64,000 nucleotides of DNA from contig JAFTXE010000018.1 in assembly GCA_017461745.1 (NCBI GenBank), positions 564 through 64,563 of the forward strand, given 5' to 3'. Position numbers and translations under genes: made by a program. The DNA comes from Clostridia bacterium (lineage in GTDB: Bacteria > Bacillota > Clostridia > Oscillospirales > CAG-272). The notes below the pieces were generated by a model that was not told the origin of the DNA, searched no databases, and worked only from the letters and a program-made list of their open reading frames with translations. Below are positions 21,341 to 53,282 of this stretch, piece by piece. How positions within the stretch are numbered: the first letter of the stretch is position 1; the number at the start of each line of letters is the position of its first letter.

Positions 21341-23029
21341 TTATTTTGTGTACTCTATTTGATATTCTACCAAGCTCATAGTGTTACTCTCTGCATTATA
21401 AATAATACTGATAAAATCATATATTCCGCTTTTGCTTGGCAAGCTATTAAATTCTTTTGTTGTTTTGTTGTATATTAGGTAGTAATCGCTTGATTCCATA
21501 TCATATAGATACGAGGTGATACCAACCATATCGTTAGGTATGTATGACATCCACTTTGTGTCACTTTCAAGATATTTCTCAAATTCTGCCACGCAAGCAT
21601 TATCAAAATAAATATCGCTGGTATAGTAAATATATCCGCGAGGTGATGATTGCGTTCCTTGAGTCCAATCGCGTGTATTAATTTGAGTATGCTCGGGAAT
21701 GTCAATATTCAATATTTGCTCTGCTTTCAAAATCGGTTCATCACTGTGCGAATATATATCGTCAAAAATAAAAGTAAATGAGCCGTAAATGCAAAGCAAT
21801 GCCGCCATAATAAATCCAACAATCACGTTTTTCTTATACTTGAATCCTTTTTTCTTCAAGTAAAAACCAAACATGATTGATGCTATAGGAATAGGAAGAA
21901 ACAAAAAGAATGCCCACATATTCTCATATTCCATTGCCCCCGGATTGATAACGGATAAAATAGCAGTGCCTATCAAACCACCCCATATAGAGCAAATAGA
22001 GAAAGCAAACAAAAGAATAGAAATTACACGCTGCCGACCTCTTGGTTTTGGAGAATATGTTTGAGAATTTATCCAATCACATGGATTTATGATAGGTTCA
22101 GTTATAGTACTATCGACTTTTTCAGACGATTCCTCATTAGTATAGTCCGAGTTTTCGTCAGAGGCAACTGCATCCTCCTGTATTGAATCATCTTTTTCTG
22201 CTATTTTTTTCAGATATTCATTAGAAAGACAAGCCAACATCAACTTGGGATATTGCTCTTTAACGAGACGAAATCGAAATTCTGCCTCTTTAATTTCCTC
22301 AAGTTCAAATGATATCAAACCTTTAAGATATTGAATATATGCTTCTGTCACATTGCGAGAAGTCCATGGCACAAGCTGCTCGCGAAGCTCAGAAATTTTT
22401 TCCGAATCGTGATCATAGAGCGCACAAAGCATATGAAGCACCGTTTGACACCTTTCGTTTATCAAGCGTTGCTTTTCTTTTTGACGAGTCAATTGTGAAA
22501 GCTCTTGGTCGTATTTAGATGCAGTATCTTTTAGCATATTACCGTCTTCAAGAAAAAATGCACATCTCGCTTTTTGAAACAGACCAACCATTGCATAGTT
22601 TCTATTTCGAGCACCAATCATTTTTTCTGCATATTTAATTGCTTCCAAATAATTTCCAAGATATAAATAGTCTTGCAAAAAAATAGAATTTGGAGGGTCG
22701 TGCTTGTATACGTTGAGATATAGAATAAGCTGTTTTTCAGGATCACATTCTTGATCCATTGACGATGTCAACGGATGCGTAATGAATAATACTGCAAAAA
22801 ACAATATCAAAAGACAAACAATAACCATCAATAAAAGAACCCCTATAGGCAAGCCTTTGGAAGTAACCGTCTCTGTTACTCCATTGACTGTATATGTTGA
22901 GGTTGAAGATCCGCCGAAAATAAAAATAGCAATTATCGCAATGACAGTAATAACTATCGCAAATTTTCTTCTTTTTTTAATCTTTTTTATTAAATCGGTA
23001 TACTTTGGTATTTTTTGATTTTGATTCAT
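21341..23029 (-). CDS. hypothetical membrane protein with TPR-like middle region
   Basis: 562 aa; N-terminal TM pair, helical repeat region, acidic linker, 4 TM, C-terminal beta-rich domain; AT-rich codon usage. Confidence 0.55.
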   Translation of the reverse strand: MNQNQKIPKYTDLIKKIKKRRKFAIVITVIAIIAIFIFGGSSTSTYTVNGVTETVTSKGLPIGVLLLMVIVCLLILFFAVLFITHPLTSSMDQECDPEKQLILYLNVYKHDPPNSIFLQDYLYLGNYLEAIKYAEKMIGARNRNYAMVGLFQKARCAFFLEDGNMLKDTASKYDQELSQLTRQKEKQRLINERCQTVLHMLCALYDHDSEKISELREQLVPWTSRNVTEAYIQYLKGLISFELEEIKEAEFRFRLVKEQYPKLMLACLSNEYLKKIAEKDDSIQEDAVASDENSDYTNEESSEKVDSTITEPIINPCDWINSQTYSPKPRGRQRVISILLFAFSICSIWGGLIGTAILSVINPGAMEYENMWAFFLFLPIPIASIMFGFYLKKKGFKYKKNVIVGFIMAALLCIYGSFTFIFDDIYSHSDEPILKAEQILNIDIPEHTQINTRDWTQGTQSSPRGYIYYTSDIYFDNACVAEFEKYLESDTKWMSYIPNDMVGITSYLYDMESSDYYLIYNKTTKEFNSLPSKSGIYDFISIIYNAESNTMSLVEYQIEYTK

Positions 23030-23050
23030 AGTGATTCTCCGTACTTAAAT

Positions 23051-23082
23051 AAAAAGGTGTGCATAACCGAAGTATGCACACC
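23051..23082 (-). terminator. intrinsic terminator inside the 5' leader of the 21341..23029 gene
   Basis: Minus strand GGUGUGCAUA-CUUCGGU-UAUGCACACC followed by UUUUU, 21 nt before the RBS. Confidence 0.65.
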
Positions 23083-23270
23083 GAAAAACGCAAACTCCGA
23101 TTGCTGCTACACAAAACTTAACAAGCGTAGAGAAAACTCATACTTAGATGCCAAGTGGAATTTGCATTTTTTCCAAATTCATTATTAGCATACAAGTATA
23201 GGAATAAACCTCTCTATAAAAAAAATAGAGAGTCCTCTCGCATAAGCTTGTTGATTAAATTTTGTGTAGC
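23083..23270 (-). promoter_or_regulatory. structured 5' leader / candidate invertible segment (copy L1)
   Basis: Inverted repeats 23106..23126 and 23246..23270, hairpin block A 23154..23180, 17-mer block B 23084..23100; homologous blocks at 47891..47983. Confidence 0.55.
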
Positions 23271-23276
23271 AAGGAT

Positions 23277-23305
23277 ATTATATCATAAATTCCATGGTTT
23301 GTCAA
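23277..23305 (-). promoter_or_regulatory. consensus promoter TTGACA-17-(TGa)TATAAT on minus strand
   Basis: Reverse complement of 23277..23305 = TTGACAAACCATGGAATTTATGATATAAT. Confidence 0.6.
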
Positions 23306-23368: not shown

Positions 23369-23397
23369 TTGAATAAAATTCTGACCTGTGATATAAT
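23369..23397 (+). promoter_or_regulatory. promoter TTGAAT-17-(TGa)TATAAT for metY
   Basis: -35 at 23369..23374, -10 at 23392..23397; short leader. Confidence 0.5.
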
Positions 23398-23429
23398 TAA
23401 ATATGAATTTGTTTTTTAGGAGAAAAGTT

Positions 23430-24716
23430 ATGTCTGAATTTAAAATTGAAACAAAATGTATACAGTCGGGATACACTCCCAAGAACGGTGAGCCTCGTGT
23501 TCTTCCTATTTGCCAGAGCACGACCTACAAGTATGACAGCGCCGCTCATCTTGGCGACCTTTTTGACCTGAAGGTTGCGGGTCATATGTATTCCAGAATT
23601 TCCAATCCAACGGTTGAGTGCGTTGAGAATAAGATTGCTGACCTTGAGGGCGGTACGGGAGCGGTTCTTTGCTCCTCGGGACAGGCTGCAAATCTGCTTG
23701 CCATTCTCAATATTACCTCTGCGGGACAGAATATCGTAAGTATGTCCTCTATCTACGGCGGTACTATCAACCTCTTTGCCGTAACTCTTAAGCGCATGGG
23801 TATTGAGGTTCGTTTTGTTACCCCTGAGATGTCCGACGAGGAGGTCGCTGCTCATATTGACGAGAACACGCGCCTTTTCTTCGGCGAGACCATCGCAAAC
23901 CCCGCACTCGTCGTATTCGATATCGAAAGATATGCAAAGCTTGCTCATGCGCACGGTATTCCGCTTCTTATAGACAATACCTTTGCGACTCCCGTTCTTT
24001 GCCGCCCCTTTGAGCACGGTGCGGATATAGTTATTCATTCAACTACCAAATACATGGACGGACACGCTCAGGTAGTCGGTGGCGTTGTGGTTGACGGCGG
24101 AAAATTCGATTGGACGGCGGGTAACAAGTATCCCGAGCTTACCGAGGTGGACGAGTCCTATCACGGTGTTATATATACAAAGGATTTCGGACTTAAGACT
24201 GCGTATATTACCAAGCTCCGTGTTCAGCTAGTTCGTGACTTTGGCGTTTTGATGCCTGCAATGTCCGCATATCTTCTCAATCTCGGACTTGAAACTCTTT
24301 CCGTCCGTATGGAGCGCCACTGCGCAAACGCGCTTAAGGTAGCTGAATATCTCTCCAAGAGCGACAAGGTATCGTGGGTCAACTATCCGCTTCTTGAAGG
24401 CAACAGCCAATATGAGCTTGCGAGCAAATATCTTCCCAACGGCGCTTGCGGAGTTATTTCCTTCGGCGTAAAGGGAGGAAGAGAAGCGGCTGTCAAGTTT
24501 ATGGACAGCTTAAAGCTTGCGGCGATAGTCGTTCACGTTGCGGACGCAAGAACCTCGGTTCTTCACCCTGCAAGCACGACGCACCGTCAGCTTACCGACG
24601 AGCAGCTTGTTGATGCGGGAATTACGCCCGATCTTGTAAGACTTTCCGTTGGTATTGAAAACGCTGATGACATTATTGCCGACATCGAACAGGCGCTTGA
24701 AATATCTCAGAAATAA
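23430..24716 (+). CDS. metY: O-acetylhomoserine aminocarboxypropyltransferase/sulfhydrylase (PLP-dependent)
   Basis: 428 aa from MSEFKIETKC (AGGAG RBS); Cys/Met-metabolism PLP family, STTKYMDGH lysine motif. Confidence 0.9.
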   Translation: MSEFKIETKCIQSGYTPKNGEPRVLPICQSTTYKYDSAAHLGDLFDLKVAGHMYSRISNPTVECVENKIADLEGGTGAVLCSSGQAANLLAILNITSAGQNIVSMSSIYGGTINLFAVTLKRMGIEVRFVTPEMSDEEVAAHIDENTRLFFGETIANPALVVFDIERYAKLAHAHGIPLLIDNTFATPVLCRPFEHGADIVIHSTTKYMDGHAQVVGGVVVDGGKFDWTAGNKYPELTEVDESYHGVIYTKDFGLKTAYITKLRVQLVRDFGVLMPAMSAYLLNLGLETLSVRMERHCANALKVAEYLSKSDKVSWVNYPLLEGNSQYELASKYLPNGACGVISFGVKGGREAAVKFMDSLKLAAIVVHVADARTSVLHPASTTHRQLTDEQLVDAGITPDLVRLSVGIENADDIIADIEQALEISQK

Positions 24717-24761
24717 AAACGTTATTAATATTTGAAAGTATTATGAAAGTGAGGCAGAGCC

Positions 24762-25679
24762 ATGCCAATAAGAATACCAAATCTTCTGCCCGCAACGCAG
24801 ACCTTACTTGAGGAAAATATCTTCGTAATGACTGAGACCCGTGCTATGACGCAGGATATCCGTCCCTTGAAGATACTTATGCTCAATCTCATGCCGCAGA
24901 AGATAGTTACAGAAACGCAGATAGCAAGGCTCATTGGAAACACGCCCTTGCAGGTCTCCCTTGAGCTTTTACAGACCGCTACGCATAAATCAAAGCACAC
25001 CTCGGCTGAGCATATGCTTGCGTTCTATAAGACCTTTGACGAGGTCAGAAGCAACAAGTACGACGGGCTTATAATAACGGGCGCTCCCGTTGAGCACCTC
25101 GACTTCGAGGAGGTCGAATATTGGGATGAGCTTTGCGAGATAATGGAGTGGAGCAAGACGCACGTTACGAGCACCTTCCATATATGTTGGGGAGCTCAGG
25201 CAGGTCTTTACTATCACTATGGAGTTAAAAAATATCCGCTTGATAAAAAGCTTTTCGGAGTGTTTGAGCATAAGCTCGACCACAAGCACTCAATACTTTT
25301 CCGTGGCTTTGACGATACCTTCGTCGTCCCTCATTCAAGGCATACGACCTGCAATCGTGAGGATATCGAGGCAGTACCCGAGCTGAAGATCTTGTCAAGC
25401 TCCGATGAGGCGGGCGTTTTCGTTTGCGCTACCGACAAGGGCAGACAGATATTTGTGACGGGACATTCCGAGTACGACGCCGATACGCTGAAAAAGGAAT
25501 ATCTGCGTGATAAAAACGCGGGGCTTCCCATTGACGTACCTAAGAATTATTTCCCCGATGATGACGACACCAAAGAGCCTATCGTTCGCTGGAGAAGCTG
25601 TGCAAATCTTTTGTACTCCAATTGGCTGAACTATTTTGTATATCAGTCCACGCCGTACGATATAGACGCTATAGAATAA
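24762..25679 (+). CDS. metA: homoserine O-acyltransferase (MetA family)
   Basis: 305 aa; [11 protein letters not shown]..., [17 protein letters not shown] catalytic Cys motif. Confidence 0.9.
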
Positions 25680-25685
25680 TTCGTT

Positions 25686-26516
25686 ATGTATTCAAGGGTA
25701 TACGTTGAGATAACCAATATTTGTAACAGAAGCTGCTCGTTCTGCCCGGGGCACGACAGAGAGGCGCGGAGAATGACGGCGAGTGAGTTTGACGCTGTAA
25801 CGGACAAGCTCGTCGGCGTAACGCAATACCTTTACTATCACGTTATGGGCGAGCCGCTTACTCACCCGCTCTTGCCCGATTTTATAAGGACGGCGACCGA
25901 AAAGGGCTTTAAGTCCGTGGTTACCACAAACGGTACTTTGCTTGAGTCCGTCGGCGACGCACTTATTGATGCGGGAGTGTACAAGGTCAATATTTCCTTG
26001 CATAGCTTTGAGGGAGACGCCGCTGAGGCGTATGAGAAATATATAACCTCTTGCCTTGACTTTGCCGATAAGGCGAGCAGGGCAGGGGTTCTCGTTATAT
26101 TGCGACTGTGGAACAAGGGACACGACGGAGGCAGAAACGAGGATATAGTTGCGGCTATGAAGGAACGATTTTCGGACGCTGAATGGAAAGAGGACGCGCG
26201 AGGAGCGAGAATACGCCACCGCTTGCATCTTGAATACGGCGAACGCTTTGAGTGGCCTGACGCAAGCGCCGAGGACGGCGGAGCGGACGTGTTCTGCTAT
26301 GGGCTTTCCGACCATTTTTCCATACTGTGCGACGGAACGGTAGTGCCGTGCTGTCTTGACAGAAACGGAGCACTTGCGCTTGGTAACGTGCTTGTGGATA
26401 GCGTGGAGAAAATAATGACCTCAGATAGAGCCGAACGGATACGCCGCGGCTTCAAAAACAGAACTGCCGCGGAGGATCTTTGCCGCAGGTGCGGATACGC
26501 GAGAATGAAGTTTTGA
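25686..26516 (+). CDS. radical SAM protein with C-terminal SPASM/twitch-like Cys cluster
   Basis: 276 aa; CNRSCSFCPG (CxxxCxxC) at the N-terminus; C-terminal CDGTVVPCC...CRRCGY. Confidence 0.8.
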   Translation: MYSRVYVEITNICNRSCSFCPGHDREARRMTASEFDAVTDKLVGVTQYLYYHVMGEPLTHPLLPDFIRTATEKGFKSVVTTNGTLLESVGDALIDAGVYKVNISLHSFEGDAAEAYEKYITSCLDFADKASRAGVLVILRLWNKGHDGGRNEDIVAAMKERFSDAEWKEDARGARIRHRLHLEYGERFEWPDASAEDGGADVFCYGLSDHFSILCDGTVVPCCLDRNGALALGNVLVDSVEKIMTSDRAERIRRGFKNRTAAEDLCRRCGYARMKF

Positions 26517-47808: not shown

Positions 47809-47984
47809 GCCAAATCAATCGAATAAATGCGTTATCAGTGTATATTTCTCTTTAGGGGAACTATACTCTTTTTGGCGTGCTTACATAGTAGAATTTGATA
47901 AAAATGCAAATTCCGACTATGTGAGCATGTATACACTGTTTCGCATTAGATTGGTTTGGCGACTATTCGGAGTTTGCGTTTTTT
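47809..47984 (+). promoter_or_regulatory. structured 5' leader / candidate invertible segment (copy L2)
   Basis: Inverted repeats 47826..47844 and 47930..47947, hairpin block A 47891..47918, 17-mer block B 47967..47983 identical to 23084..23100 (rc). Confidence 0.55.
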
Positions 47985-48014
47985 GTGCGCTTGCTTCGGT
48001 AGGCGCACTTTTTT
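47985..48014 (+). terminator. intrinsic terminator inside the leader
   Basis: GTGCGC-TTGCTTCGGTAG-GCGCAC followed by TTTTTT, 67 nt before the ATG. Confidence 0.55.
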
Positions 48015-48081
48015 GTTTTTTGACAAAAAAAGCAAAAAATTACGACTTATATTATTGAGGGGAAAAAAGGAGGAATTTGCA

Positions 48082-50529
48082 ATGCTGAACTTCAAAAAGG
48101 TCATTTCACTATGTCTGTGTCTTGTGATGCTTGTGGGTGTTCTTGCGTCTTGTGACGAGGGCACGCAAGGGATACAGGGTGAGCAAGGTATTCAAGGAGA
48201 ACAAGGAATACATGGCGAGCAGGGTGTTCAAGGCGAACAGGGGGAAAAAGGAGACAAGGGCGACAAAGGTGACAAAGGTGATGACGGTGTAAGTCCGACT
48301 TTAGCAATCAGTGATGACGGCTATTGGGTAATCAATGGCACAAAGACTAATTTCAAAGCAACGGGTACGGACGGGCAGAACGGCACGGACGGTGTAACGC
48401 CATCAATCACAATCAATGCTGATGGTTATTGGGTTATCAATAATGTCGTATCTGAATATAAGGCGGTCGGCAAGGACGGTGTAGACGGAAGCACTCCAAC
48501 GGTCGAGATTAGTAACGATGGCTATTGGGTACTTAACGGAACAAAGACTGCTCATAAGGTCATCGGTCAGAATGGATTGGATGGCGAAGACGGAAAAGAT
48601 GGAGCAGACGGAAAAACGCCCGCTCTGCGCATCAATTCTGAAACAAATGAGTGGGAAGTCTCTTATGACGATGGAGAAAATTGGACTTCACTCGGTGTAA
48701 AAGCGACAGGAGCGAACGGCTCTGACGGCAAAGACGGTCAAAATGGTACAAACGGAAAAGATGGCAAAGACGGTGCTGATGGTATAACGCCGGCACTGCG
48801 CATCAATGCTGATAATGAATGGGAAGTCTCTTACGACAATGGAACTACTTGGGCGTCTCTTGGTGTAAAGGCTACGGGTGCTAATGGTAACGATGGTGCT
48901 GATGGCGAAGACGGTCAAGATGGTCAAGACGGCGCAAACGGCGTAGATGGCATATCTCCGAAAATACGCATCAATGCGGAAAATTATTGGGAGGTATCTT
49001 ACGATAATGGAACAACTTGGGCATCTCTCGGCGTGAAAGCGACTGGCGCAGATGGTCAAGATGGAACAAATGGTACGAACGGCACGAATGGTACAAACGG
49101 AAAAGATGGTGAGGACGGTGCTGACGGTATAACCCCGAAACTGCGCATCAATTCTGAAAATAATGAATGGGAAGTCTCTTACGATAACGGCGAGAATTGG
49201 ATTTCTCTCGGCGTGAAAGCGACGGGCGCTGACGGTCAAGATGGAGCGAATGGTTCTAATGGAACAAACGGAACGAATGGTACGAATGGAGTTAACGGAA
49301 AGACTCCTCGGTTAAGAATCAATTCTGAAAGCAACGAGTGGGAAGTTTCTTATGACGATGGAGAGCATTGGACTTCTCTCGGAGTAAAAGCGACAGGCGC
49401 TGACGGTCAAGATGGAGCGAATGGTTCTAACGGAATAAACGGAACGAATGGCGACGACGGCGCAACGATTGCATCTATCGTATTCAACGAAGAGGGCAAG
49501 TTGGTTATTACGATGACTGACGGCACAGAGTTCATCGTTGATATGCCTGAGAAAGAAGAGCATGTACACAGTTATAGCGAATTGATTGATTATAGTAATG
49601 ATGCAAGTCTATCTTGTACGGAGAGAATGTACTATCAGTTTTGTGCGAGTTGTAGTGAGATAAGGTGGTGCTTGGGTAAGCATAATTTTTCTGAAGGATA
49701 TTATAGCGATGGAACTCATCATTGGTTCGATTGCTATAACTGTGACGAAAAACTTGGCTTTGAAGAGCATACATATAATTTTTACGGTTTTTGCACATGC
49801 GAATCTGACATGGGGCCATCAGACAGTGTTATTTATGGAGTTTCTGAAGATGGCTCGCATGCAGTGGTTACAGGCTATACGGGTTCAGATGCTAAAGTAG
49901 TTATTGCTTCTCAATACGGAGATTTGCAAGTACTTGAAATTGCAGAGAGAGCGTTTGAGAATACTGATGTTGAGACGGTAATTATTTCTGGAAGCATCAT
50001 GTACATTGGTGAATATGCTTTCGCTGACTGTTCAAATCTCTCTAGAGTTTCAACGATGGAAGGTGTTGCGTTTATAGACAGATATGCTTTTGCTAATTGT
50101 ATCAGTCTCAAAACTATAGACATAGCTAATGTCGATGCAATCAATGCATGCGCTTTTTCGGGATGTAGTGCTTTGGATGGTGTTACACTTTCAGAGGATA
50201 TGGAATTTATAACAGGTGGTCTCTTTGAAAATTGCAGTAGTCTTACGAACATCACGATTCCGAGCAATGTGACACTTATTGGAAACGACGCTTTTAGTGG
50301 ATGCAGTAGTCTTAGATGTGTTGAACTTTCTAACAATCTTAAAAGCATTGGTGGAAGTGCTTTTAGTGGTTGTACAAGCTTGGGAAATATTACACTTCCA
50401 GATAGTATAGAAAGTATTGGAGAAAATGCATTTGAAAGTTGTTTGGGGTTAACAAGTATTGTACTTCCACAAAATATCACTGACATCTGCTATATTATCA
50501 TGAACATATCGTTGAATATGGCAAAGTAG
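48082..50529 (+). CDS. surface lipoprotein: collagen-like G-X-Y repeats + modular repeats + Cys-rich region + BspA-type leucine-rich repeats; C-terminus apparently truncated
   Basis: 815 aa from MLNFKK (AAGGAGG RBS; lipobox LASC); 43 G-X-Y triplets at 48160..48288; LRR units like VTLIGNDAFSGCSSL; ends abruptly after ITDI. Confidence 0.75.
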   Translation: MLNFKKVISLCLCLVMLVGVLASCDEGTQGIQGEQGIQGEQGIHGEQGVQGEQGEKGDKGDKGDKGDDGVSPTLAISDDGYWVINGTKTNFKATGTDGQNGTDGVTPSITINADGYWVINNVVSEYKAVGKDGVDGSTPTVEISNDGYWVLNGTKTAHKVIGQNGLDGEDGKDGADGKTPALRINSETNEWEVSYDDGENWTSLGVKATGANGSDGKDGQNGTNGKDGKDGADGITPALRINADNEWEVSYDNGTTWASLGVKATGANGNDGADGEDGQDGQDGANGVDGISPKIRINAENYWEVSYDNGTTWASLGVKATGADGQDGTNGTNGTNGTNGKDGEDGADGITPKLRINSENNEWEVSYDNGENWISLGVKATGADGQDGANGSNGTNGTNGTNGVNGKTPRLRINSESNEWEVSYDDGEHWTSLGVKATGADGQDGANGSNGINGTNGDDGATIASIVFNEEGKLVITMTDGTEFIVDMPEKEEHVHSYSELIDYSNDASLSCTERMYYQFCASCSEIRWCLGKHNFSEGYYSDGTHHWFDCYNCDEKLGFEEHTYNFYGFCTCESDMGPSDSVIYGVSEDGSHAVVTGYTGSDAKVVIASQYGDLQVLEIAERAFENTDVETVIISGSIMYIGEYAFADCSNLSRVSTMEGVAFIDRYAFANCISLKTIDIANVDAINACAFSGCSALDGVTLSEDMEFITGGLFENCSSLTNITIPSNVTLIGNDAFSGCSSLRCVELSNNLKSIGGSAFSGCTSLGNITLPDSIESIGENAFESCLGLTSIVLPQNITDICYIIMNISLNMAK
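48616..49465 (+). repeat. five tandem coding repeats of about 165-180 bp
   Basis: Units TP(A/K/R)LRIN..NEWEVSYD(D/N)G..W.SLGVKATGA(N/D)G + variable G-X-Y run. Confidence 0.75.
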
Positions 50530-52321: not shown

Positions 52322-53260
52322 TTACCTCATCTTAATACTCAACCTTCCCGAAAACTTATCCAAGAGATTGAGTTCATTGACTTGCTTTGCCACATCACTG
52401 ACGAGAAGGTTGAGATAATTCTGCGTAATATCGAGACTGCTATGACCAAGCATTTTAGAGAGGGAAACCACATTGCCACCGCTTAACACCCATTGTTTAG
52501 CGAAAGTGTGTCTGTATCTGTGTATGCCCGTCCTCTCAACACCGCGACGCTTATTATACTCGTACAGCATATGATAACAGGTGCTCTTGACGAGTTGCTG
52601 ACCGTACGCATTGCAGAACAGATAGTCGTCCGTGTTCTTATGCTTACGATATTTCAAAAACTCTTTCAGTACATTTGCCATTGTTTGATTGACGGGCACG
52701 ATGAGCGGTTTTCTATTCTTTGTAACATTGACATAGACCACATTGTTATCGAAATCCACATCCTTGACCTTGATGTTCATAAGACTGCGCTGCCTAACAC
52801 CCGTACTGAAGAGAAAAGTCGTAATCACCCACGCTTGATACTCCGTAAAATTGCACTGCTTGATGTTGGGCTTTTTCAACAGTGCTCTTAATTCGTCCTC
52901 TGTGTAAGTCTCGATGCCGCTTTTATCTACTTTAATTGCTTGCATCTTGAACCGCTCAAGATAGCCCTCGTCCATGAGAAAGTGAAGCGTTGTTATCAAG
53001 TCGCGCAAGTAAGAATTGATACTGACATCATTGTGCAGTATCTTTTTCAGATGCAGAACATAACTCTTGTAAGCGTCCGCATCCATATATTCAATCGGCA
53101 TATCGGGGTCAAAGAATTTATAGAACTGCGTGTAACTCTGTTTGTAGTGATTGATAGTACCTTCTCTCAAATTGCGCTGTCTGCAATTGTCGAGATATTT
53201 GTTACAGCCGTCCTCAAAAGTAAACGCATCACTCGCATCCATTTTCAATCTTTTCATCAT
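52322..53260 (-). CDS. tyrosine-type site-specific integrase
   Basis: About 312 aa from an ATG after GAGGTG (the ORF opens at TTG 53272); TGVRQRSL (Arg), HRYRHTF (H-x-x-R), LGHSSLDITQNYL (His...Tyr). Confidence 0.85.
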   Translation of the reverse strand: MMKRLKMDASDAFTFEDGCNKYLDNCRQRNLREGTINHYKQSYTQFYKFFDPDMPIEYMDADAYKSYVLHLKKILHNDVSINSYLRDLITTLHFLMDEGYLERFKMQAIKVDKSGIETYTEDELRALLKKPNIKQCNFTEYQAWVITTFLFSTGVRQRSLMNIKVKDVDFDNNVVYVNVTKNRKPLIVPVNQTMANVLKEFLKYRKHKNTDDYLFCNAYGQQLVKSTCYHMLYEYNKRRGVERTGIHRYRHTFAKQWVLSGGNVVSLSKMLGHSSLDITQNYLNLLVSDVAKQVNELNLLDKFSGRLSIKMR

Positions 53261-53282
53261 TTCACCTCGCAAAAATCAGTAT

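What the first reader, a model, noticed from the sequence alone, without database searches (positions are those of the whole stretch)
23051..23305. Consensus promoter, about 215-nt structured leader and intrinsic terminator upstream of a 562-aa membrane protein gene: candidate riboregulator or invertible switch (L1)
All on the minus strand. The TTGACA-17-TGATATAAT promoter (23305..23277) puts the TSS near 23270. That is the first base of an imperfect inverted-repeat pair: 23246..23270 GCTTGTTGATTAAATTTTGTGTAGC and 23106..23126 GCTACACAAAACTTAACAAGC, with the outer 11 bp perfect. The enclosed ~120 nt hold four mutually complementary GAGAG/CTCTC stretches and a 7-bp hairpin GAATTTG-N9-CAAATTC (block A, 23154..23180). 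Directly after the distal repeat come the 17-mer TCGGAGTTTGCGTTTTT (block B, 23100..23084) and a 10-bp GC-rich hairpin with a U-run (23082..23051). A GGAGA RBS and the ATG at 23029 follow. The 3' half of block A (AAAAAUGCAAAUUCC) is complementary to block B over 15 consecutive positions (13 WC + 2 GU, counted by hand). That allows an RNA pseudoknot or alternative pairing, or at the DNA level a second inverted-repeat pair. I recognise no riboswitch, T-box or known leader consensus. The layout promoter - IR - segment - IR - terminator - gene is that of cwpV-type phase-variable DNA switches in Clostridioides difficile. Two site-specific recombinases are encoded elsewhere in this window. A conditional-termination RNA is the alternative reading.
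Basis: partly seen in the sequence, partly recalled or inferred. Interest (0 to 1): 0.8.

Follow-up and report, generated by a model that had tools for sequence, protein, structure and literature searches.

The report
New structured leader RNA with terminator switch
The region is not a flippable DNA switch but a roughly 215-nt folded leader RNA, one of over 100 copies of an apparently undescribed family in gut and rumen Clostridia, which appears to decide whether transcription stops before mostly membrane and surface-protein genes.

Summary
The invertible-switch reading is not supported. The riboregulator reading is strongly supported and can now be described in detail.

The leader belongs to a family not found in Rfam 15. 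About 100 members were recovered from gut and rumen Clostridia metagenomes and MAGs. A second copy lies in this window at 47809-48016 (+).

All members share one layout:
- An extended -10 box 6-8 nt upstream of a long covarying rod (P1-P3).
- An apical hairpin (block A), a linker, block B, and a terminator with a conserved CUUCGGUUG apex.
- A different gene about 25 nt downstream, mostly lipoproteins, LRR surface proteins and zinc-ribbon membrane proteins.

The "inverted repeats" are an RNA helix. Mismatches in outer P1 are G.U (14) and never A.C.

Covariation supports a relay of mutually exclusive helices:
- Block A hairpin, versus block A 3' strand pairing with block B.
- That pairing, versus linker plus GGAG pairing with the terminator apex (an antiterminator).
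- That antiterminator, versus the terminator itself.

The effector is unknown. Among roughly 100 loci, none shows a whole-segment inversion.

The parts
23277..23305 (-). Sigma-A-type promoter: TTGACA (23305-23300), 17 nt, TG-n-TATAAT (23285-23277). The TSS is inferred at about 23270.
   Evidence: 12/12 hexamer matches plus TG. In the family, a -10 box lies 6-8 nt before the 5' arm in 72/73 members, and 62/73 have the TGn extension.
23246..23270 (-). It starts at the inferred +1.
   Evidence: On the 76-sequence alignment P1 is 98% paired and 12 of 13 pairs show compensatory double changes.
23106..23126 (-).
   Evidence: Non-Watson-Crick cells in outer P1 are G.U (14), not A.C (0).
23130..23239 (-). 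Interior of the rod. P2 is 23239-23230 with 23139-23130. Side hairpin P2a is 23229-23213. Side hairpin P2b is 23211-23200 (AGG-UUUAUU-CCU here; GGGG-AUAUUAUA-CCC followed by a U-run in the family consensus). P3 is 23199-23185 with 23154-23140.
   Evidence: MFE fold. In the family, the interaction between native 5' and 3' interior strands averages -17.9 kcal/mol, against -3.3 for mismatched partners, p about 1e-40.
23157..23180 (-). Block A, the apical hairpin P4. The A5' strand is 23180-23174, the A-rich loop is 23173-23165, and the 3' stem strand is 23164-23158. The A3' segment that is also complementary to block B is 23171-23157 (loop A-run plus 3' stem strand).
   Evidence: P4 -5.1 kcal/mol. 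P4 is 88.5% paired and 6 of 7 pairs show double changes; no shuffle reaches these values.
23095..23103 (-). Antiterminator 5' strand: linker CAAUC plus the GGAG of block B. It is complementary to the terminator apex.
   Evidence: -9.2 kcal/mol here. It covaries by class: CAAUCGGAG with CUUCGGUUG, CAAUUGGGG with CUCCGGUUG or CCUCGGUUG, and CAAUAGGAG with CUCUUAUUG or CUUCUAUUG. It is 94.2% paired, and 0/500 shuffles reach the observed values.
23084..23098 (-). Block B (GGAGUUUGCGUUUUU). It pairs with A3' over 15 bp and is the inferred anti-antiterminator partner. Its first 4-5 nt are shared with the antiterminator.
   Evidence: The helix is 97.5% paired. Both positions of B that the search pattern left free covary with block A (CG/UG/UA at 38/26/11; UA/UG/CG at 49/18/5).
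23047..23082 (-). Intrinsic terminator. The stem is 23082-23073 with 23065-23056, the apex CUUCGGUU (23072-23065) is the antiterminator 3' strand, and the U-run is 23055-23047.
   Evidence: -15.9 kcal/mol. The stem covaries in the family.
21341..23040 (-). Regulated gene: RBS GGAGA at 23040-23036, ATG at 23029, and a 562-aa multi-pass membrane protein with no Pfam domain above threshold.
47809..48016 (+). Second member of the same leader family in this window. P1 is 47809-47831 with 47942-47960, block A is 47891-47914, the antiterminator 5' strand is 47963-47972, block B is 47969-47983, and the terminator is 47985-48008. A lipoprotein gene starts at 48082.
   Evidence: Here A3':B is -19.8, the antiterminator -9.5 and the terminator -17.2 kcal/mol. 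Relative to the consensus, the antiterminator carries a compensatory A-U to U-A change that is also matched in the terminator 5' strand.

Best explanation
The feature is an RNA. It is a roughly 215-nt structured 5' leader transcribed from a strong sigma-A promoter, and it acts in cis as a conditional intrinsic terminator in front of the 562-aa membrane-protein gene.

It belongs to a multi-copy leader family of uncultured gut and rumen Clostridia (MAG titles: Oscillospiraceae, Ruminococcus, Acutalibacteraceae). The family is absent from Rfam 15.

Shown by covariation:
- The 5' and 3' arms form helix P1, beginning at +1, and close a long rod (P1-P2-P3) capped by the block A hairpin (P4).
- The 3' strand of block A can instead pair over 15 bp with block B, just downstream of P1.
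- The linker plus the first four nucleotides of block B (CAAUCGGAG) can instead pair with the apex of the terminator (CUUCGGUUG).
- That apex is otherwise part of the terminator hairpin.

Inferred logic:
- While block A stays closed or held away from block B, block B and the linker are free. They capture the emerging terminator apex (antiterminator), delay hairpin completion, and RNA polymerase reads through into the gene.
- When the block A 3' strand pairs with block B (anti-antiterminator), the antiterminator cannot form. The terminator folds and transcription stops about 25 nt before the start codon.

The signal that sets the state of block A or the rod is unknown. Candidates are a small molecule, a protein, another RNA, temperature or transcription speed. 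The conserved P2b hairpin with its U-run and the apical loop are the candidate sensor surfaces.
For: - Fold quality: z = -7. Promoter and terminator are confirmed.
- Family: about 100 true members were recovered with two independent seeds, block A in genomes and block B in metagenomes. All share one architecture.
- Promoter registration: a -10 box lies in register with +1 of P1 in 72/73 members.
- Helices: P1, P4 and the terminator covary. The interior stems covary, at -17.9 against -3.3 kcal/mol.
- A3':B helix: 97.5% paired, with covariation at both free positions.
- Antiterminator helix: 94% paired. Class-specific compensatory changes give -10.5 native against -5.8 cross-class kcal/mol for the CAAUAGG class. 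Copy 2 in this window carries an A-U to U-A swap.
- Link to the downstream gene: a co-oriented ORF starts within 50 nt of the terminator in 53/73 members, against 6/54 in a divergent-strand control. These genes are unrelated to each other.
- The leader is modular. It is present before the 77%-identical orthologue in a different context (L003) and absent before the 46-69% orthologues.
Against: - No expression data are available, so neither termination nor read-through has been observed.
- The terminator (-15.9 kcal/mol) is much more stable than the antiterminator (-9.2 before loop closure). It also nucleates locally, so read-through needs kinetic trapping or a helper.
- A3':B is a pseudoknot with respect to the rod. 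Only a 7-nt linker joins P1 to block B, so whether the helix can form with P1 intact is uncertain.
- Block B was fixed by the search pattern, which limits the covariation test for A3':B to two positions.
- No ligand-like pocket or effector has been identified.
- The shuffle controls ignore phylogeny.
Confidence: 0.7

Rival explanations
1. Stand-alone structured small RNA, or a static 5' structural module. The terminator would be constitutive. The A3':B and linker:apex complementarities would belong to one fixed tertiary fold, or act in trans, rather than forming a cis switch. The downstream gene would be expressed only by leak-through.
For: The unit has its own consensus promoter and a strong terminator. 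The terminator is thermodynamically dominant over the antiterminator. No classical antiterminator to the terminator 5' strand exists. The family is multi-copy and strongly conserved in sequence.
Against: The helices share nucleotides, so they cannot all coexist: GGAG lies in both A3':B and the antiterminator, and the apex lies in both the antiterminator and the terminator. The downstream ORF is co-oriented and starts a median 25 nt after the U-run, leaving no room for its own promoter.
Confidence: 0.17
2. cwpV-type invertible DNA switch. A site-specific recombinase would flip 23127-23245 between the two inverted repeats, changing whether the leader terminates.
For: The layout promoter - IR - segment - IR - terminator - gene is present. 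A tyrosine recombinase is encoded at 52322-53272. One family member (L015) has its apical P3+P4 hairpin reverse-complemented. A Logan contig ends 3 nt inside the distal arm.
Against: The arms covary between loci, and their only mismatches in outer P1 are G.U on the sense strand (14 G.U, 0 A.C). The interior is a covarying RNA rod. None of roughly 100 loci shows a whole-segment inversion, and the assembled contig compared with the window (L001) is identical across the leader. The L015 event inverts only a 52-nt hairpin, not the IR-bounded segment. The recombinase is 29 kb away.
Confidence: 0.03
3. Selfish palindromic repeat (MITE-, ERIC- or Correia-like) that happens to carry a promoter and terminator and has spread through intergenic regions without a dedicated regulatory role.
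For: The element is multi-copy, with 2 copies in this 64-kb window, tandem copies in L066 and more than 100 in metagenomes. It has terminal inverted arms. It is present or absent before orthologous genes.
Against: Copies are diverged and carry compensatory changes in at least five helices. The conserved unit extends beyond the arms to a promoter conserved only functionally and to block B and the terminator. The unit keeps a strict register with the downstream start codon. No target-site duplication is visible.
Confidence: 0.05

Closest known systems
Transcription-attenuation leaders with terminator / antiterminator / anti-antiterminator logic (for example S-box/SAM-I and T-box leaders of Firmicutes, or the trp and pyr attenuators); comparison from own knowledge
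   Same: A structured 5' leader lies between a sigma-A promoter and the RBS. An intrinsic terminator sits just before the gene. Nested, mutually exclusive helices share strands. The sensor domain is closed by a P1 helix, and its 3' end abuts the expression platform.
   Different: There is no match to any Rfam 15 family. The antiterminator pairs with the terminator's loop and upper 3' strand rather than its 5' strand. The anti-antiterminator strand comes from the apical hairpin of a rod of roughly 45 bp, about 52 nt upstream of block B, which makes it a pseudoknot. The effector is unknown. The regulated genes are unrelated envelope and accessory proteins rather than one pathway.
cwpV (Cdi1) and related RecV-dependent invertible switches of Clostridioides difficile; comparison from own knowledge
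   Same: The linear layout promoter - inverted repeat - roughly 120-200 bp - inverted repeat - leader - surface-protein gene, with a terminator in the leader as the off device.
   Different: In cwpV the DNA segment flips and both orientations coexist. Here the repeats are the two strands of an RNA helix (G.U tolerated, free covariation). No inverted copies are seen, and the off/on device is alternative RNA pairing.
c-di-GMP-I/II riboswitch regulons of Clostridia; comparison from own knowledge
   Same: One leader type occurs many times per genome in front of diverse surface, adhesion and membrane proteins, usually with an intrinsic terminator.
   Different: There is no sequence or structure similarity (Rfam negative). 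The ligand is unknown.
Transcribed palindromic repeats (Correia/NEMIS, ERIC, RUP); comparison from own knowledge
   Same: Multi-copy intergenic elements with inverted termini that fold as long hairpins in mRNA leaders.
   Different: Here the conserved unit includes a correctly spaced promoter, block B and a terminator. Copies evolve by compensatory change, and there are no target-site duplications.

Membership tests
cwpV-type invertible DNA switch | Inverted repeats flanking a short segment between promoter and ORF | tested here: met
   Arms at 23270-23246 and 23126-23106, with the outer 11 bp perfect.
cwpV-type invertible DNA switch | Both orientations of the segment exist in sequence data | tested here: not met
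   None of roughly 100 homologous loci has the interior inverted relative to the flanks. L001, an independent contig with the same gene, is identical in orientation. This test used assemblies only.
cwpV-type invertible DNA switch | Mixed orientations within one population (raw reads) | not testable with these tools
   No read data are available. A PhaseFinder-style test on the source sample is needed.
cwpV-type invertible DNA switch | Repeats conserved as DNA recombinase sites, so that mismatches are strand-symmetric | tested here: not met
   The arms differ between loci with compensatory changes (GCCAAAC/GTTTGGC, GCTACAC/GTGTAGC, GTCACAC/GTGTGAC and others). Outer-P1 mismatches are 14 G.U against 0 A.C.
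cwpV-type invertible DNA switch | Cognate site-specific recombinase | tested here: inconclusive
   One tyrosine recombinase lies at 52322-53272, 29 kb away and not adjacent. Only 10 ORFs were scanned.
Terminator/antiterminator transcription attenuator (riboswitch-like leader) | Intrinsic terminator between the TSS and the start codon | tested here: met
   A 10-bp stem plus U-run at 23082-23047. It is conserved and covarying in the family.
Terminator/antiterminator transcription attenuator (riboswitch-like leader) | Alternative helix that shares nucleotides with the terminator and is evolutionarily maintained | tested here: met
   Linker plus GGAG pairs with the terminator apex over 9-10 bp. 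It is 94% paired, shows class-specific compensatory changes, and 0/500 shuffles reach the observed values.
Terminator/antiterminator transcription attenuator (riboswitch-like leader) | Upstream helix that competes with the antiterminator (anti-antiterminator) | tested here: met
   A3':B is 15 bp, 97.5% paired, and covaries at both free positions. It overlaps the antiterminator by GGAG(U).
Terminator/antiterminator transcription attenuator (riboswitch-like leader) | Signal-dependent change in termination; identified effector | not testable with these tools
   This requires Term-seq, in vitro transcription or in-line probing.
Any Rfam 15 family (riboswitches, T-box, leaders, sRNAs) | Covariance-model match at the gathering score, or at least E<=1 | tested here: not met
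   The window at gathering threshold gave only two tRNAs. The region at E<=10 gave only noise. Seven other members at E<=1 gave nothing on the leader.
MITE-/ERIC-/Correia-like palindromic repeat | Many copies with inverted termini | tested here: met
   Two copies in the window and more than 100 in metagenomes.
MITE-/ERIC-/Correia-like palindromic repeat | Near-identical copies, target-site duplications, and flanks unrelated to the element | tested here: not met
   Copies are diverged with compensatory changes. No duplication is seen at the arm ends. The flanks (-10 box, block B, terminator) are part of the conserved unit.
Stand-alone sRNA gene | Independent of the neighbouring gene in orientation and distance | tested here: not met
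   A co-oriented ORF starts within 50 nt after the terminator in 53/73 members, against 6/54 in the control. The median distance is 25 nt.

The most novel reading that the evidence does not exclude
This would be a new class of riboswitch-like sensor RNA that places a large, fast-evolving set of surface, lipoprotein and membrane genes in gut and rumen Clostridia under one as yet unknown global signal. It would use an unusual four-helix relay in which the apical hairpin of a long rod reaches back to the expression platform. Terminated leaders all expose the same block A, which is complementary to block B of every nascent sibling transcript. They could therefore also act in trans and couple dozens of loci through RNA-RNA feedback.
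Probability: 0.3. Interest if true: 0.85.

Novelty: new variant of a known kind. Interest (0 to 1): 0.62.

Why it matters
If confirmed, this adds a widespread regulatory RNA class that appears to be uncatalogued. It occurs in a poorly studied but abundant group of gut and rumen bacteria. There are more than 100 representatives and at least two copies in 64 kb here.

The class controls the kind of genes that shape host and phage interactions: BspA-type LRR proteins, lipoproteins including Ltp-like ones, zinc-ribbon membrane proteins and small Cys-rich peptides.

It is an orphan sensor. The covariation-defined expression platform makes its signal experimentally approachable.

It also serves as a caution. 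The layout promoter - IR - segment - IR - terminator can be an RNA helix rather than an invertible DNA switch.

Tried and rejected
- **Rfam 15.** I scanned the window at gathering threshold, the region at E<=10 and seven other members at E<=1. Nothing matched.
- **Orthologue upstream regions.** Only the 77% orthologue has the leader. The 46-69% orthologues have a plain promoter and a short UTR. The leader is therefore not tied to this gene, and this route gave no covariation.
- **Classical antiterminator.** I searched for one pairing with the terminator 5' strand. The best partners are weak and scattered.
- **Block A 3' strand pairing with the terminator 5' strand.** This specific model falls below the shuffle controls and is rejected.
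- **Whole-segment inversion.** I looked for reverse-complemented block A upstream of block B in all loci. Only L015 has it, and there only the 52-nt apical hairpin is inverted.
- **Literature.** Full-text searches for the conserved sequence strings and for motif descriptions found nothing, as did the supplement of the human-microbiome structured-RNA survey and the 50-genome ncRNA paper.
- **Plasmid collection.** No match.
- **Recombinases.** Only one was found among the 10 ORFs tested.
- **Covariance model.** I did not build one.

Full report
**Observation.**
- On the minus strand I find TTGACA (23305-23300), a 17-nt spacer and TG-a-TATAAT (23285-23277). This is a 12/12 match with the TG extension.
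- Seven nucleotides downstream of the -10 box, at 23270, begins GCTACACAAAATTTAATCAACAAGC. It is complementary to GCTTGTTAAGTTTTGTGTAGC at 23126-23106.
- Between the arms lie the GAGAG/CTCTC stretches and the hairpin GAATTTG-N9-CAAATTC (block A, 23180-23158).
- After the distal arm come TCGGAGTTTGCGTTTTT (block B, 23100-23084), a 10-bp hairpin with a U-run (23082-23047), GGAGA (23040-23036) and the ATG at 23029.
- The block A 3' half pairs with block B over 15 positions at -19.0 kcal/mol.
- The leader's MFE is -80.2 kcal/mol against -49.3 +/- 4.4 for dinucleotide shuffles, z = -7.0.

**The leader is not tied to this gene.**
- The downstream ORF is a 562-aa multi-pass membrane protein with no Pfam domain above threshold.
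- A 77%-identical orthologue in an unrelated genomic context (L003) carries the same promoter, leader and terminator with only a handful of substitutions across the roughly 300-nt unit.
- Orthologues at 69% (L004, L006), 49% (L007) and 50% (L008) lack the leader. They have a promoter and a short UTR.
- The leader is therefore a portable module.

**It is a large family.**
- A genome-collection scan with the 24-nt block A found 9 loci in different Clostridia MAGs. The MAG titles name Oscillospiraceae, Ruminococcus, Acutalibacteraceae and "Eubacteriales".
- A second member lies in this very window at 47809-48016 (+), in front of a lipoprotein gene.
- A short-form member sits on an unverified phage scaffold from human faeces.
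- Every member has the same order: TGnTATAAT, then 6-8 nt, P1 5' strand, variable stems, a small GGGG-AUAUUAUA-CCC hairpin followed by a U-run (absent in short forms), P3, block A, P3', P2', P1 3' strand, GA-CAAUCGG, block B, a terminator with apex ACUUCGGUUG, and a U-run.
- A -10 box sits in register in 72/73 members, and 62/73 have the TG extension.
- No Rfam 15 family matches the window copy or seven other members.
- Text searches for the conserved strings or for a matching description found nothing.

**It is an RNA structure, not a DNA repeat.**
- On a 76-sequence non-redundant alignment (A2), P1 is 98% paired, and 12 of 13 pairs show compensatory double changes. Examples are GCCAAAC/GUUUGGC, GCUACAC/GUGUAGC, GUCACAC/GUGUGAC, GCGACAC/GUGUCGC and GCUCAAC/GUUGAGC.
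- In the outer ten pairs, the non-Watson-Crick cells are 14 G.U, 2 C.U and 0 A.C. A DNA inverted repeat would show G.T and A.C equally. The asymmetry identifies the minus strand as a functional RNA.
- The interior stems differ in sequence between members yet stay complementary. The interaction energy of native 5' and 3' interior strands averages -17.9 kcal/mol, against -3.3 for partners swapped between members, p about 1e-40.
- None of the roughly 100 loci has the arm-bounded segment inverted.
- L001, an independent contig carrying the identical gene, is identical across the leader.

**The expression platform.** Four helices share strands, and each is supported across the family.
- *(i) P4, the block A hairpin.* It is 88.5% paired, and 6 of 7 pairs show double changes. 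No shuffle reaches the observed values.
- *(ii) Block A 3' strand pairing with block B.* It spans 15 bp and is 97.5% paired. Block B was fixed by my search pattern except at two positions, and both covary with block A: CG/UG/UA at 38/26/11 and UA/UG/CG at 49/18/5. Changes in the block A 3' strand preserve pairing with B better than pairing with its own 5' strand. For example, U to C at column 174 gives 10 C-G pairs with B but contributes to 17 broken pairs in P4.
  - It covaries by class. CAAUCGGAG pairs with CUUCGGUUG. CAAUUGGGG pairs with CUCCGGUUG, CCUCGGUUG or CCCUGGUUG. CAAUAGGAG pairs with CUCUUAUUG or CUUCUAUUG.
  - For the CAAUAGG class, native pairing averages -10.5 kcal/mol against -5.8 cross-class.
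  - Counted on fixed columns, it is 94.2% paired with 11 double-change cells against 2.2 expected, and 0/500 shuffles reach this.
  - In the second window copy, the consensus A-U pair has become U-A (linker CUAUUCGGAG, apex CUUCGGUAG). The terminator 5' strand changed to match.
- *(iv) The terminator itself.* It covaries.
- The multiple partners explain why blocks A and B, the linker and the terminator apex are so conserved in sequence. Each must satisfy two partners.
- A pairing of the block A 3' strand with the terminator 5' strand was tested and rejected. No other consistent partner for the terminator 5' strand exists.

**How it most likely works (inference).**
- Helix (iii) removes the apex and upper 3' strand from the terminator. 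For steric reasons it cannot coexist with the lower terminator stem: the connecting loop would be 0-1 nt across a 9-bp helix. It is therefore an antiterminator.
- Helix (ii) sequesters GGAG(U), half of the antiterminator's 5' strand. It is therefore an anti-antiterminator.
- Helix (i) competes with helix (ii).
- The read-out is as follows. If block A is closed or kept away from block B, the antiterminator forms and transcription reads through. If block A pairs with block B, the terminator forms and transcription stops.
- In the window copy the energies are P4 -5.1, A3':B -19.0, antiterminator -9.2 and terminator -15.9 kcal/mol. The thermodynamic ground state is therefore "off", and read-through needs kinetic or effector help.
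- A3':B is a pseudoknot relative to the rod, and only 7 nt link P1 to block B. The integrity or bending of the rod, or something bound to the apical hairpin or the conserved P2b/U-run junction, is the likely control point.
- The effector is not identified.

**Cis-regulatory role.**
- A co-oriented ORF with an RBS starts within 50 nt of the U-run in 53/73 members (median 25 nt). The same ORF finder applied to the divergent strand gives 6/54.
- The 93 distinct downstream proteins are unrelated to each other. They include BspA-type LRR proteins (9), zinc-ribbon membrane proteins (9), SHOCT (5), double zinc ribbon (5), ABC ATPases (4), collagen-repeat proteins (3), Ltp lipoproteins (3), MazE/AbrB-like proteins (3) and DUF4234 (3).
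- They also include about 23 proteins with lipobox-like signal peptides and a group of small Cys-rich peptides.
- This pattern fits a regulon of envelope and accessory genes under one leader type.

**Verdict.**
- The "conditional-termination RNA" alternative is supported and is now specified helix by helix.
- The cwpV-type invertible-switch reading is not supported.
- The element is a new family within a known kind, the transcription-attenuation leaders. It has an unusual expression platform and an unknown signal.
- The main uncertainties are the absence of any expression data, the kinetic feasibility of the antiterminator, and the phylogeny-blind nature of the shuffle controls.

Noticed in passing
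window 47809-48016 (+), gene from 48082: This is a second full member of the same leader family. It has -10 TGGTATAAT, P1, a GGGG..hairpin, block A GAATTTGATAAAAATGCAAATTCC, block B and a terminator. It lies upstream of a lipoprotein of roughly 815 aa (MLNFKKVISLCLCLVMLVGVLASC...). Its linker and terminator apex carry a compensatory A-U to U-A change.
   Followed up: yes
L015:1987-2196 (-) (MAG JAZORA010000190.1): In this family member, the 52-nt apical P3+P4 hairpin is precisely reverse-complemented relative to the rest of the leader. This abolishes A3':B pairing. It is 1 of roughly 100 loci. It could be a template-switch inversion at a quasi-palindrome, a natural locked mutant, or an assembly error.
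   Followed up: partly
L002 (Logan contig SRR12529366_39921), position 1: A 1.9-kb contig carrying the identical 562-aa gene ends 3 nt inside the distal P1 arm. This may reflect a de Bruijn graph branch caused by sibling leader copies, or low coverage. It is not explained.
   Followed up: no
window 21341-23029 (-): The C-terminal ~45% of the 562-aa protein (TM segments plus a C-terminal domain) is 65-74% identical to the C-terminal half of a very large family of 473-aa membrane proteins with an N-terminal XRE-type HTH domain (PF01381). The N-terminal halves are unrelated, so the gene looks like a domain-swapped mosaic.
   Followed up: no
L066:32-760 (+): Two leader copies lie 500 nt apart in tandem. 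The first precedes a 45-aa Cys-rich peptide (…GFECCCDEYDYYLF). Similar peptides of 54-69 aa follow the leader in L039, L040, L105, L113 and L139. These may be precursors of a modified peptide.
   Followed up: no
L141 (MT835845.1, 'Bacteriophage sp.' scaffold, human faeces) ~1408-1565: This is a short-form family member, lacking the GGGG hairpin, upstream of a lipoprotein gene on an unverified phage scaffold. Together with the Ltp-type lipoproteins among the regulated genes, it hints that prophages use the same leader.
   Followed up: partly
L136:101-253 (+): This natural deletion variant lacks P3 and block A but keeps P1, block B and the terminator. Its terminator apex has also diverged (GACGACCGUUGG), so the antiterminator complementarity is weakened.
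   Followed up: no
window 52322-53272 (-): This ORF is a 316-aa tyrosine recombinase (Phage_integrase plus a SAM-like N-terminal domain), 29 kb from the leader. It was the only recombinase among the 10 ORFs scanned.
   Followed up: partly
window 23369-23397 (+): A divergent promoter-like site (TTGAAT-17-TATAAT with TG) lies in front of the metY-metA-radical SAM genes (23403-26516, +). No SAM riboswitch or T-box precedes them.
   Followed up: no
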